From the NCBI GenBank assembly GCA_934157205.1, contig CAKPHJ010000003.1, forward strand, positions 2,624 through 66,623: 64,000 nt of DNA. Direction: 5' to 3'. This document shows, piece by piece, positions 9,267-10,360 of this stretch (its first letter is position 1; every line of letters starts with the position of its first letter). Source of the DNA: an uncultured Clostridia bacterium. Lineage in GTDB: Bacteria > Bacillota > Clostridia > TANB77 > CAG-508. The position numbers were made by a program, and so were the translations under genes. Below the pieces are notes generated by a model. That model saw only the letters and a list, made by a program, of their open reading frames with translations. It searched no databases and was not told the origin of the DNA.

Positions 9267-9405
9267 CTATTTTTTTGAAATAATTTGTAATTATTTCTTT
9301 CTCCTTCCTTATTTTTTTATTTAGTATATCATAACTAATTGCTAAATAACAAGTATATTATTTAATTTTAGAATAAAATTCAAGAAATTCTAATTTTAAA
9401 AAGTG

Positions 9406-9434
9406 TTGACTTTTTATGTAAAATATGGTATATT
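9406..9434 (+). promoter_or_regulatory. sigma-A type promoter (copy A) for the first region-4-only gene
   Basis: TTGACT at 9406-9411, a 17-nt spacer, and an extended -10 TGgTATATT ending at 9434. Confidence 0.6.
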
Positions 9435-9457
9435 ATATATAGTAGTTATTAGTTTAA

Positions 9458-9475
9458 GTCTTGATTTATCAAGAC
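9458..9475 (+). promoter_or_regulatory. 18-bp perfect palindrome in the leader (candidate operator), copy A
   Basis: GTCTTGATTTATCAAGAC sits just downstream of the predicted transcription start. An identical copy is at 10026..10043. Confidence 0.4.
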
Positions 9476-9502
9476 GCCGGTTATAATAAAAGGAGTTTTT
9501 TT

Positions 9503-9757
9503 ATGAATGCAAGCGACAACAACGAAATGATTGAAATGATTGAAATGGTCAAGCAGAAGCTTGGAACACCAGAAGTAAAGGAACGGATCAGCGAAGAGGA
9601 GTTATATGTTTTAAAATTGCGTTTCGGCGTAATTGATGGAAATCTTTACACCCTCAATGATACTGGAAAATTAATCGGGAAGTCACGGGAGAAAGTTCGT
9701 CAAATTGAAGCCCGTGCATTACGGAAGTTAGGCCTGAAAAAACTTTGGTCTAAGTAA
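9503..9757 (+). CDS. small protein consisting only of a sigma-70 region 4 helix-turn-helix
   Basis: ATG at 9503 follows an AAAGGAG ribosome-binding site (the track ORF starts at an upstream TTG). The segment [42 protein letters not shown] matches sigma region 4.2. GC content is clearly higher than the surrounding DNA. Confidence 0.7.
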   Translation: [84 protein letters not shown]

Positions 9758-9771
9758 AAACAACTCGTTTT

Positions 9772-9820
9772 CCCCTGGAATTGTATATTATACATTCCAG
9801 GGGTTTTTATATTTAAAAAA
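9772..9820 (+). terminator. rho-independent terminator (copy A)
   Basis: GC-rich hairpin CCCCTGGAATTGTATATTATACATTCCAGGGG followed by a T-tract. Confidence 0.7.
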
Positions 9821-9972
9821 AACACAATAAATGGTTTTGATATCTATATTTTTAAATAATTTTTAATTATTATTCCATATTTTTTATTTAGTGTATCATA
9901 ACTAATTGCTAAATAACAAGTATATTATTTAATTTTAGAATAAAATTCAAGAAATTCTAATTTTAAAAAGTG

Positions 9973-10001
9973 TTGACTCTTTATGTAAAATACGGTATAT
10001 T
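9973..10001 (+). promoter_or_regulatory. sigma-A type promoter (copy B), near-identical to copy A
   Basis: TTGACT at 9973-9978, a 17-nt spacer, TATATT at 9996-10001. It is embedded in a ~165-bp block that is about 95% identical to 9300..9480. Confidence 0.6.
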
Positions 10002-10066
10002 ATATATAGTAATTATTAGTTTTTAGTCTTGATTTATCAAGACGCCGGTTTGAAAAGGAGAACAAA

Positions 10067-10306
10067 ATGGAAGAAATGCAATATGATGATATTGATGTAT
10101 TAACTGACGTTATTATTGAAGCGCTTGGTAAGAACGCTCTGGACCTAACAACAGTGGAAACTCTTGTGCTAAAGATGAGATTCGGACTTCTTTCGAATAA
10201 ACAGAAAGAAGATGTCGCATCAATATTGCACCTAACAAATGAAAAAACAAAAGAAATAGAGCTAGAAGCTATGTACAAAATAATACAAAACTATATGAAA
10301 AAATAA
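10067..10306 (+). CDS. paralogous small protein with only a sigma-70 region 4 helix-turn-helix
   Basis: 79 aa with an AAAGGAG ribosome-binding site. LVLKMRFGLLSNKQKEDVASILHLTNEKTKEIELEAMYKI is region-4-like. It is diverged from the first paralog even though both share the same flanking regulatory shell. Confidence 0.65.
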   Translation: MEEMQYDDIDVLTDVIIEALGKNALDLTTVETLVLKMRFGLLSNKQKEDVASILHLTNEKTKEIELEAMYKIIQNYMKK

Positions 10307-10314
10307 CTTCTTCT

Positions 10315-10360
10315 TCCCCTGGAATGTATATTATACATTCCAGGGGTTTTTATATTTTAA
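10315..10360 (+). terminator. rho-independent terminator (copy B)
   Basis: CCCCTGGAATGTATATTATACATTCCAGGGG plus a T-tract, nearly identical to copy A. Confidence 0.7.

What the first reader, a model, noticed from the sequence alone, without database searches (positions are those of the whole stretch)
9287..10360. Tandem pair of region-4-only sigma-like mini-proteins, each inside a near-identical promoter/leader/terminator shell
- Two plus-strand genes (9503..9757 and 10067..10306) lie in an otherwise minus-strand region between der and pyk.
- Each encodes an ~80-aa protein that consists essentially of a sigma-70 region 4.2 helix-turn-helix. The first has [37 protein letters not shown].
- The two coding sequences are highly diverged (the proteins are only weakly similar).
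- Their flanks are about 95% identical over ~165 bp upstream. Each has TTGACT, a 17-nt spacer, an extended -10 TGnTATATT, and a perfect 18-bp palindrome GTCTTGATTTATCAAGAC at the start of the leader.
- The flanks are also nearly identical downstream: the GC-rich terminator CCCCTGGAAT(T)GTATATTATACATTCCAGGGG plus a T-tract.
- Both ORFs have visibly higher GC content than the ~27% GC background.
- This looks like a modular cassette system: a conserved expression shell carrying swappable cargo.
- Region-4-only proteins could act as -35-element competitors or anti-sigma decoys, or as half of a split sigma factor.
Basis: partly seen in the sequence, partly recalled or inferred. Interest (0 to 1): 0.8.

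Follow-up and report, generated by a model that had tools for sequence, protein, structure and literature searches.

The report
Two free-standing sigma domain-4 genes
A gut Clostridia bacterium carries, between two housekeeping genes, a tandem pair of foreign-looking genes that each encode only the promoter-reading tail domain (region 4) of the main sigma factor, an uncharacterised variant of a kind of protein otherwise seen mostly in phages.

Summary
ORF1 (9503-9757, 84 aa) is a clear primary-sigma region 4.1+4.2 domain that keeps the -35-reading residues. ORF2 (10067-10306, 79 aa) has the same fold, but its recognition helix is degenerate and acidic. Each gene has its own TTGACT-17-TATATT promoter, leader hairpin, Shine-Dalgarno site and strong terminator.

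The "shell" is a 578-bp in-situ tandem duplication whose left edge includes the first four codons of der. It is 97% identical up to the ribosome-binding site and again from the stop codon. The cargo has foreign codon usage: GC3 is 42% and 29%, against 13±3% in the background.

A sister strain, seen in two independent samples, has only one unit. Its flanks are 99.3% identical to the window but its ORF differs at 11% of positions (dS 0.28, dN/dS 0.29). So ORF1 is a real gene under purifying selection, and its alleles are far older than their flanks.

The shell was found nowhere else, and five related species lack the locus. Other sigma4-only minis are scattered and mostly sit in phage-like contexts.

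Most likely these are acquired sigma4 mimics that act on the RNA polymerase flap or on -35 DNA. That function is inferred, not shown.

The parts
9254..9831 (+). Repeat unit 1. It holds the der 5' end and der-proximal intergenic DNA, then the promoter, leader, ORF1 and terminator.
   Evidence: Self-similarity 9255-9482 to 9832-10050 (91%) and 9756-9831 to 10299-10374 (90%).
9832..10374 (+). Repeat unit 2. It starts with a relic copy of der's first codons (GGTTTTGATAT; ATG changed to ATA on the minus strand), then the promoter, leader, ORF2 and terminator.
   Evidence: The junction CAATAAA|TGGTTTTGA was read.
9406..9434 (+). Promoter of ORF1: TTGACT, 17 nt, TATATT, with TG at -15/-14.
   Evidence: 10 of 12 matches, TG present.
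9458..9475 (+). Leader inverted repeat GTCTTGAT-TT-ATCAAGAC. As RNA it is a 7-bp stem with a 4-nt loop. Each arm contains a -35-like TTGAT.
   Evidence: only two sites in the window, 0.1 expected. Fold.
9489..9495 (+). Shine-Dalgarno site AAAGGAG, 7 nt before the ATG of ORF1.
   Evidence: Sequence read.
9503..9757 (+). ORF1, 84 aa. A canonical primary-sigma region 4.1+4.2 domain with the recognition helix [16 protein letters not shown].
   Evidence: dN/dS of 0.29 against the sister allele. GC3 of 0.42.
9772..9808 (+). Intrinsic terminator of ORF1: CCCCTGGAATTGTATATTATACATTCCAGGGG followed by TTTTT.
   Evidence: -20.4 kcal/mol, z -4.7.
9973..10001 (+). Promoter of ORF2: TTGACT, 17 nt, TATATT, without the TG (CGG instead).
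10026..10043 (+). Second copy of the leader inverted repeat.
10054..10060 (+). Shine-Dalgarno site AAAGGAG, 6 nt before the ATG of ORF2.
   Evidence: Sequence read.
10067..10306 (+). ORF2, 79 aa, by my residue count net charge about -5. It has the sigma region-4 fold and keeps the 4.1 motif VLKMRFG, but the recognition helix is degenerate (NEKTKEIELEAMYKI).
   Evidence: GC3 of 0.29.
10316..10351 (+). Intrinsic terminator of ORF2: a 14-bp stem followed by a T-tract.
   Evidence: -23.3 kcal/mol, z -5.8.

Best explanation
Two monocistronic genes encode free-standing copies of the sigma-A region-4 domain (sigma4). They are horizontally acquired, probably from a phage or another mobile element, and are restricted to one lineage.

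**How the arrangement arose.** A 578-bp stretch running from der codon 4 to the end of the terminator was duplicated in place. The two copies now carry very different cargo. This happened either because a divergent allele was captured or recombined in, or because gene conversion keeps the flanks alike while the coding regions escape.

**Inferred mechanism.**
- ORF1 has no sigma regions 1-3, so it cannot recruit or open promoters. It keeps the fold, the 4.1 helix and the -35 base-reading residues.
- It therefore most likely acts as a sigma4 mimic. It would compete with sigma-A region 4 for -35-like DNA, possibly including the TTGAT inverted repeat in its own leader, and/or for the beta-flap tip of RNA polymerase. 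That would damp -35-dependent transcription.
- ORF2 keeps only the structural and 4.1 part. It has an acidic recognition helix that is unlikely to bind DNA. It is most likely a protein-binding variant, acting on the flap or on ORF1, by analogy with T4 gp33 and with the degenerate second domain of double-sigma4 proteins.

**Shown and inferred.** The domain identity, gene structure, duplication, foreign composition, allele divergence and purifying selection are shown. The binding targets and the physiological role are inferred.
For: **Domain identity.**. The alignment puts ORF1's S-R-E-K-V-R-Q against sigma-A's T-R-E-R-I-R-Q. From my own knowledge of Campbell et al. 2002, these positions (E. coli R584, E585, R588, Q589) read the -35 element. 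ORF2 has N-E-K-T-K-E at the same positions.

**Independent expression signals.**

**Real coding gene.** dS 0.28, dN 0.08, dN/dS 0.29, and an in-frame 9-nt indel between alleles.

**Foreign cargo.** GC3 z-scores are 10.2 and 5.5. ORF1 uses only CGT and CGG for arginine, where the background uses AGA 85% of the time.

**Restricted to one lineage.**
- An exhaustive HMMER search of 1.84 billion representative proteins found only one close relative.
- Five related species with conserved der-plsY-gpsA synteny lack the locus.
- Copy number is one or two depending on the strain.

**Phage link.** Other M-started sigma4-only minis lie among HNH, Dam, GP88, NUMOD3 and phage-replication-like genes. BFVD lists many phage proteins of 50-110 aa annotated as sigma-70 region 4.

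**Pairing precedent.** All 10 two-stretch proteins scanned with Pfam carry two Sigma70_r4 domains and no region 2. By my reading of the domain sequences, most pair a canonical domain with a degenerate one.
Against: - There is no direct evidence of expression, of binding to the flap or to DNA, or of any phenotype.
- No phage genes adjoin the locus; it sits between housekeeping genes.
- ORF1 lacks the C-terminal RHPSRS...L..FL tail of primary sigmas. From my own knowledge, that tail contributes to flap binding, so flap affinity may be weak.
- ORF2 is not specifically closer to the degenerate domains of double-sigma4 proteins than to the canonical ones. The pairing analogy is therefore architectural only.
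- The TTGAT half-sites in the palindrome are about 8 bp apart centre to centre, which is not ideal for two helix-turn-helix units on one face of the DNA.
- The host's own SigA could not be retrieved for comparison.
Confidence: 0.45

Rival explanations
1. The proteins are ordinary sequence-specific helix-turn-helix regulators that happen to descend from sigma4, working like GerE or the phage LtrA/RinA activators. ORF1 would bind the 8-2-8 inverted repeat in both leaders, repress itself and ORF2, and perhaps control a few other operators, without touching RNA polymerase competitively.
For: - The inverted repeat lies just downstream of both promoters, is identical in all three known shells, and occurs nowhere else in the window.
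- Each arm carries a -35-like TTGAT, and ORF1 keeps the -35-reading residues.
- Stand-alone sigma4-like phage activators have been shown experimentally (LtrA; PMC3753634).
Against: - Sigma4 binds DNA as a monomer, and no dimerisation element is evident.
- The half-site spacing is short.
- ORF1 is not an LtrA member.
- The repeat could equally be an RNA hairpin or the operator of some other protein.
Confidence: 0.2
2. The proteins are decoys that defend against phage. Highly expressed free sigma4 would soak up phage proteins that attack host sigma region 4, as AsiA, G1 ORF67 and P23-45 gp39 do.
For: - The locus has features typical of defence loci: presence and copy number vary by strain, composition is foreign, alleles are deeply diverged within identical flanks, and a duplication has diverged.
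- The best match among solved structures is the S. aureus sigma-A domain 4 that was crystallised with phage G1 ORF67.
Against: - The only PADLOC match is the sigma domain of MzaA.
- A decoy should track the host's own sigma-A, yet ORF2 is highly diverged.
- dN/dS of 0.29 shows no signal of positive selection.
- No neighbouring defence genes were found.
Confidence: 0.1
3. The locus is a decaying remnant of a mobile element or a captured rpoD 3' fragment. It may be expressed or silent, but it has no selected function.
For: - Composition is foreign.
- Related species lack the locus.
- The same window shows other signs of gene decay, with split SpoIIP and xseA.
Against: - Both ORFs are intact, with good Shine-Dalgarno sites, promoters and terminators.
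- ORF1 alleles show dN/dS of 0.29 and an in-frame indel.
- The sequence is essentially the same in four independent contigs that span both units.
Confidence: 0.1
4. ORF1 is half of a split sigma factor, like SigO-RsoA. It would supply region 4, and a region-2-only partner encoded elsewhere would supply core binding and DNA melting.
For: Two-subunit sigma factors are known (literature found). ORF1 has an intact -35-reading domain.
Against: - No Sigma70_r2 gene is present anywhere in the 64-kb window, whereas from my own knowledge sigO and rsoA are adjacent.
- ORF1's reading residues are those of the housekeeping sigma, so it would add no new specificity.
- The genes are monocistronic.
Confidence: 0.05
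5. The locus is a true mobile cassette system: a conserved promoter, leader and terminator shell that occurs at many loci or in many genomes with swappable cargo.
For: The similarity between the units stops exactly at the ribosome-binding site and resumes at the stop codon. The cargo also differs between strains.
Against: - The shell gave no hits in three public collections.
- There are only two adjacent copies.
- The repeat includes a relic of der's first codons.
- No recombinase is present.
- The between-strain divergence lies inside the ORF, between its identical first 24 nt and last 30 nt. Exchange between ORF alleles explains this without any need for a shell.
Confidence: 0.05

Closest known systems
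Region 4 (domain sigma4) of group-1 sigma factors (SigA/RpoD)
   Same: The fold and sequence match: ORF1 is 45-54% identical to solved sigma4 chains and covers 4.1 and 4.2 in full. The -35-reading residues are kept in ORF1.
   Different: Regions 1.2-3.2 are absent, so there is no core-binding or DNA-melting module. The C-terminal RHPSRS tail is missing. The domain is encoded as a separate 79-84 aa protein with its own promoter. ORF2's recognition helix is degenerate.
LtrA (the Sigma70_r4 family) of the RinA/ArpU/Ltr superfamily of phage late activators (Quiles-Puchalt 2013, PMC3753634)
   Same: These are small proteins whose only recognisable feature is similarity to sigma region 4. They come from Gram-positive mobile elements and have been shown to regulate transcription.
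   Different: LtrA of phage 37 is a 134-aa two-domain protein next to terS, with only a sub-threshold Sigma70_r4 signal (E=0.005). ORF1 and ORF2 are single-domain, are not next to packaging genes, and show no significant similarity to it in the sigma4 register.
Phage T4 gp33 (Twist et al. 2011, cited in PMC9429907; the mechanism is from my own knowledge)
   Same: It is a small, acidic protein that takes sigma4's place on the beta-flap tip without reading the -35 element. This is a functional model for ORF2.
   Different: gp33 is not a sequence homologue of sigma4 and works with gp55 and the sliding clamp. No such partners are present here.
Two-subunit sigma factor SigO-RsoA of Bacillus subtilis
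   Same: Sigma functions are split over separate polypeptides.
   Different: From my own knowledge, SigO is larger and pairs with an adjacent gene for a region-2 protein. No region-2 gene was found here.
Uncharacterised double-sigma4 proteins and phage sigma4-only minis from metagenomes (P0012, P0028, P0042, P0110, P0115 and others)
   Same: They have sigma4 domains without region 2, and by my reading they commonly pair one canonical domain with one degenerate one. The minis have mobile-element contexts.
   Different: Identity to ORF1 is only 32-60%, no higher than for ordinary RpoD C-termini. ORF2 is not specifically related to their degenerate domains. Here the two domains are separate genes, each with a duplicated regulatory shell.
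GerE/LuxR-type stand-alone helix-turn-helix proteins and YlxM (UPF0122)
   Same: These are small four-helix DNA-binding proteins that are structurally akin to sigma4.
   Different: Neither ORF matched PF00196 or PF04297, even at E up to 10.

Membership tests
Sigma-70 family sigma factor | Has region 2 (core binding, -10 recognition and melting) as well as region 4. | tested here: not met
   Pfam and NCBIfam matches cover only the region-4 part of the sigma models. The proteins are 84 and 79 aa.
Sigma70_r4 domain (PF04545) | Sequence match above the curated cut-off of 24.1 bits. | tested here: met
   ORF1 scores 41 bits, E=1.3e-10. ORF2 scores only 15.4 bits and is below the cut-off. It is placed in the fold by RpoD_Cterm at 1.9e-5, PDB 1tty at 3e-5, ORF1 at 9e-6 and its Foldseek top hits.
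Sigma70_r4 domain (PF04545) | The -35 base-contacting residues are present (E. coli R584, E585, R588, Q589). | tested here: met
   ORF1 has S-R-E-K-V-R-Q aligned to T-R-E-R-I-R-Q. This feature is not met by ORF2, which has N-E-K-T-K-E. The assignment of these residues to contacts is from my own knowledge.
Sigma70_r4 domain (PF04545) | Binds the beta-flap tip helix of RNA polymerase. | not testable with these tools
   No complex prediction or binding assay was available. The 4.1 motif VLK(L/M)RFG is invariant in both proteins.
LtrA / Ltr superfamily phage late activators | Two-domain protein of about 130-140 aa, encoded immediately upstream of terS. | tested here: not met
   Phage 37 ORF044 is 134 aa and lies next to Terminase_2. 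ORF1 and ORF2 are single-domain and lie between der and pyk.
LtrA / Ltr superfamily phage late activators | Sequence similarity to a validated member. | tested here: not met
   BLASTP against phage 37 LtrA gives E=0.25 in the sigma4 register. The better-scoring segments are out of register.
YlxM / UPF0122 | Match to PF04297. | tested here: not met
   No hit at E up to 10.
GerE / LuxR C-terminal helix-turn-helix | Match to PF00196. | tested here: not met
   No hit at E up to 10.
Two-subunit sigma (SigO-RsoA type) | An adjacent gene for a region-2-only partner. | tested here: not met
   No Sigma70_r2 hit among the window's genes. The rest of the genome was not available.
Mobile gene cassette / multi-copy shell | The same shell occurs at other loci or in other genomes with different cargo, together with a recombinase. 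| tested here: not met
   There were no exact hits for shell patterns in genome, viral or metagenome contigs. The window holds two adjacent copies only and no integrase or recombinase. Caveat: this species is not itself in those collections.
Diversity-generating retroelement target | Adenine-specific substitutions and a nearby reverse transcriptase. | tested here: not met
   The substitutions between alleles are of all types: 15 AT-to-GC, 8 GC-to-AT and 4 other. No reverse transcriptase is in the window.
Known anti-phage defence systems (PADLOC) | Match to a defence-system protein model beyond a shared generic domain. | tested here: not met
   The only match is the sigma region-4 part of MzaA (residues 604-657 of 683), and only for ORF1. 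ORF2 has no match.

The most novel reading that the evidence does not exclude
ORF1 and ORF2 form a two-part sigma4-mimic module of mobile-element origin. A DNA-reading sigma4 and a degenerate, flap- or partner-binding sigma4' would together displace or imitate region 4 of the housekeeping sigma on RNA polymerase and at -35 elements. That would reprogramme -35-dependent transcription or neutralise sigma4-targeting phage factors. The module would represent an unrecognised class of transcription modulators that also includes the widespread double-sigma4 proteins and the phage sigma4-only minis.
Probability: 0.25. Interest if true: 0.8.

Novelty: new variant of a known kind. Interest (0 to 1): 0.5.

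Why it matters
Region 4 of sigma is where -35 recognition, flap docking, class II activators and many phage takeover proteins all meet. A cell or mobile element that makes free copies of just this domain would have a simple and so far undescribed way to tune or hijack transcription initiation.

This locus is a clean test case:
- The two genes are small and monocistronic.
- One is canonical and one is degenerate.
- Natural allelic variants exist, as do strains with one copy and with two.

It also points to a larger uncharacterised group, the double-sigma4 proteins and phage sigma4 minis, that could be studied alongside it. If instead the genes are plain autoregulated helix-turn-helix proteins or remnants, the finding is of local interest only.

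Tried and rejected
1. **Known RNA element in the shell.** Rfam found nothing in the region. Neither leader folds better than shuffled sequence (z -0.8 and -1.1).
2. **Shell elsewhere.** Five collection scans with the palindrome or terminator patterns all returned nothing.
3. **Cassette in relatives.** None of 80 der loci contains ORF1, ORF2, pyk or the shell. The five closest MAGs have other genes upstream of der.
4. **Assembly artefact.** Rejected. Four independent contigs from different samples and assemblers span both units at 99.9% identity or better. The single-unit form was seen in two independent runs that differ by 1 nt.
5. **Diversity-generating retroelement or hypermutation.** The substitution spectrum is not adenine-specific, and dS is also elevated.
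6. **Positive selection as the cause of ORF divergence.** dN/dS is 0.29.
7. **LtrA, YlxM or GerE membership.** Not met.
8. **Phage hits from tblastn.** These were full-length or bacterial rpoD, not minis.
9. **ORFs downstream of other minis as ORF2 relatives.** No similarity.
10. **ORF2 as a specific relative of the degenerate domains of double-sigma4 proteins.** No.
11. **BFVD fold search for ORF2.** No significant hit.
12. **Extending beyond the window.** The look-up failed. The host's own SigA could not be retrieved.
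Full report
**1. The observation**

Between der (7941-9266, minus strand) and pyk (10402-11838, minus strand) lie two plus-strand ORFs, at 9503-9757 (84 aa) and 10067-10306 (79 aa). 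Almost every other gene in the 64-kb window is on the minus strand. The only other plus-strand gene call is a 93-aa ORF at 4684-4965.

ORF1 matches Pfam Sigma70_r4 at E=1.3e-10. It matches RpoD/SigA models only over their C-terminal region 4, and solved sigma-A region-4 chains at E=7e-12.

ORF2 is below the Pfam cut-off (E=0.013). It still matches RpoD_Cterm (1.9e-5), T. maritima RpoD region 4 (3e-5) and ORF1 (32% over 44 residues, E=9e-6).

AlphaFold models have pLDDT 80.6 and 81.0. Their best matches among solved structures are all sigma region 4. ORF1 reaches target-normalised TM-scores of 0.70-0.93 against isolated sigma4 chains. ORF2 matches more weakly, with probability up to 0.97. Both proteins span regions 4.1 and 4.2.

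**2. The shell**

Aligning the two units shows a near-identical upstream block. The core is 165/170 identical (97%), and the longer 229-column match is 91% identical. The terminator block is 92% identical. The coding sequences do not align meaningfully.

Similarity stops at GCCGGTT, just before the ribosome-binding site (9482 and 10050), and resumes around the stop codon.

Each unit has these elements:
- A TTGACT-17-TATATT promoter.
- An 8-2-8 inverted repeat, GTCTTGAT-TT-ATCAAGAC.
- An AAAGGAG Shine-Dalgarno site.
- A strong intrinsic terminator, folding at -20.4 and -23.3 kcal/mol with z = -4.7 and -5.8.

- The palindrome is not a perfect 18-mer.
- Only unit 1 has the TG of an extended -10.
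- The leader does not fold better than shuffled sequence, and no Rfam family matches it.

**3. Origin of the repeat**

The left edge of the repeat lies inside der. Unit 2 begins with GGTTTTGATAT, a copy of der's first codons in which ATG has become ATA. It also carries a copy of the der-proximal intergenic DNA.

The junction reads CAATAAA|TGGTTTTGA. The two shells are therefore the product of a local 578-bp tandem duplication (9254-9831 and 9832-10374), not copies of a mobile module.

A non-functional relic has survived almost intact while the ORFs share only 32% protein identity. This means one of two things:
- The cargo of one unit was replaced, by capture of or recombination with a very divergent allele.
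- Gene conversion keeps the flanks alike while the ORFs escape it.

I cannot tell these apart.

**4. Foreign cargo, native shell**

GC3 is 0.42 in ORF1 and 0.29 in ORF2. In 55 background genes it is 0.130±0.029, with a maximum of 0.21. None of 1336 background windows of 84 codons reaches either value.

ORF1 uses only CGT and CGG for arginine, where the background uses AGA 85% of the time. The shell itself is 17-20% GC.

**5. Population data**

Four independent metagenome contigs span both units and match the window at 99.9% identity or better. Two further contigs break inside the repeat.

Two other samples (L006 and L097) carry a sister strain with a single unit between der and pyk.
- Their flanks are 99.0-99.5% identical to the window over about 1.3 kb.
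- Their ORF1 allele differs at 27 of 243 aligned coding positions and has an in-frame 9-nt deletion.
- ORF against flank divergence gives Fisher p=4e-13.
- dS is 0.28, dN is 0.08 and dN/dS is 0.29.

So ORF1 is a real protein-coding gene under purifying selection. Its alleles are much older than the surrounding DNA, which indicates allele exchange rather than in-place positive selection or adenine-directed hypermutation.

The first 24 nt and last 30 nt of the ORF are identical between alleles. Exchange could therefore occur within the ORF, with no need for the shell.

**6. Distribution**

- The word-indexed search of 5.8 billion protein clusters found only the protein itself and one 83%-identical cluster for ORF1. 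It found nothing but the protein itself for ORF2.
- An exhaustive HMMER search of 1.84 billion representatives found the same single close relative at 133 bits. Everything else scored 72 bits or less, at the level of ordinary sigma-factor C-termini.
- Shell patterns gave no hits in the GTDB species genomes, IMG/VR or JGI metagenomes.
- The five closest species (Der 79-88% identical, GC 26-29%) keep der-plsY-gpsA but have unrelated genes upstream of der. They have no cassette and no pyk there.

The locus is thus confined to one lineage and sits at a break in synteny. One caveat applies: the species itself is not in the scanned DNA collections, so further shell copies elsewhere in its genome cannot be excluded.

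**7. The wider class**

Among the weaker hits are proteins of 69-123 aa that start with M and consist of sigma4 alone.
- Four of the six contexts I could inspect contain mobile-element genes:
  - P0115 lies among HNH and NUMOD3 genes.
  - P0099 lies next to Dam and a gene resembling a phage replication organiser.
  - P0032 lies near GP88.
  - P0147 lies next to a DNA methyltransferase.
- The other two contexts, P0110 and P0097, are uninformative.
- BFVD lists many phage proteins of 50-110 aa annotated as sigma-70 region 4.

A second recurrent architecture has two Sigma70_r4 domains in one chain and no region 2. By my reading of the sequences, most pair one canonical domain with one whose recognition helix has lost its basic residues. 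ORF1 plus ORF2 mirrors that pairing. However, ORF2 is not specifically related to those degenerate domains.

The literature holds one validated kind of sigma4-like stand-alone regulator: LtrA, in the Ltr superfamily of late activators of Gram-positive phages (PMC3753634). Tested directly against phage 37 LtrA, ORF1 and ORF2 fail on size, domain structure, context and sequence.

**8. Mechanism (inferred)**

- ORF1 keeps the S-R-E-K-V-R-Q helix, which aligns to T-R-E-R-I-R-Q of sigma-A. From my own knowledge these residues read TTGACA. ORF1 lacks everything needed to bind core through region 2 or to melt DNA.
- Free sigma4 can therefore only compete: for -35-like DNA, for the beta-flap tip, or for proteins that dock on region 4.
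- Its own leader carries two inverted TTGAT motifs, a possible autoregulatory site.
- ORF2 keeps the 4.1 motif VLKMRFG, but its recognition helix (NEKTKEIELE) and, by my residue count, its net charge of about -5 argue against DNA binding. It most likely makes protein contacts only, by analogy with T4 gp33.
- I put the sigma4-mimic model at about 0.45. The rivals are a plain autoregulated helix-turn-helix regulator (0.2), a decoy for phage factors (0.1), a remnant (0.1), a split sigma (0.05) and a mobile cassette (0.05).
- No region-2 partner, integrase or phage gene is in the window.

**9. Verdict**

The structural reading, region-4-only proteins in a duplicated shell, is right. The cassette-system reading is not supported.

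The thing itself is an uncharacterised variant of a known kind, stand-alone sigma4-like proteins of mobile-element origin. It is made more interesting by the pairing of a canonical with a degenerate copy and by allele divergence inside identical flanks. Its function remains to be tested.

Noticed in passing
window 14032-15238 (minus strand) and 498-1692 (minus strand): SpoIIP is split into two overlapping ORFs (116 and 295 aa). xseA (exonuclease VII large subunit) is split into 121-aa and 216-aa ORFs. These may be frameshifts or pseudogenes, which would suggest gene decay, possibly including loss of sporulation, in this 25.5% GC genome.
   Followed up: no
window 9527-9544 (inside ORF1): ORF1 holds a 9-nt tandem repeat, ATGATTGAA twice, encoding IEMIEM. 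The sister allele in L006 and L097 has one copy fewer, which looks like in-frame slippage variation.
   Followed up: partly
proteins P0012, P0036, P0042, P0092, P0046, P0028, P0045, P0031, P0064: There is a recurrent, apparently uncharacterised architecture with two Sigma70_r4 domains in one chain and no region 2. One domain is canonical and the other has lost the -35-reading residues. One subgroup has an N-terminal zinc ribbon.
   Followed up: partly
loci L090, L091 and L093: Stand-alone sigma4-only proteins of 72-94 aa sit inside phage-like arrays of small one-directional ORFs, together with HNH, NUMOD3, Dam and GP88 genes.
   Followed up: partly
window 1-64000: Strand bias is extreme. All credible genes except ORF1, ORF2 and a 93-aa ORF at 4684-4965 are on the minus strand. 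The two sigma4 genes are therefore probably head-on to replication.
   Followed up: no
window 53359-56731: KilA-N (55886-56731), a weak SWIM match (55435-55905) and several small unannotated ORFs lie next to tRNA-Glu (53359-53433). This may be the remnant of an integrated element.
   Followed up: no
window 32688-34164: An AbiEii-family toxin gene (32688-33569), with an upstream 197-aa ORF that may be its AbiEi partner, lies at the edge of the capsule polysaccharide locus.
   Followed up: no
window 9267-9300 (minus strand): der has no obvious Shine-Dalgarno site within 15 nt of its ATG. A GGAG-rich stretch lies about 30 nt upstream, and it is exactly the part that is missing from the relic copy in unit 2.
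   Followed up: no
locus L099 (MT836584.1, 'Bacteriophage sp.'): This record is labelled as a phage in the phage collection, but its end carries the 3' part of an ordinary full-length bacterial rpoD. It is probably a bacterial contig that was mislabelled.
   Followed up: yes
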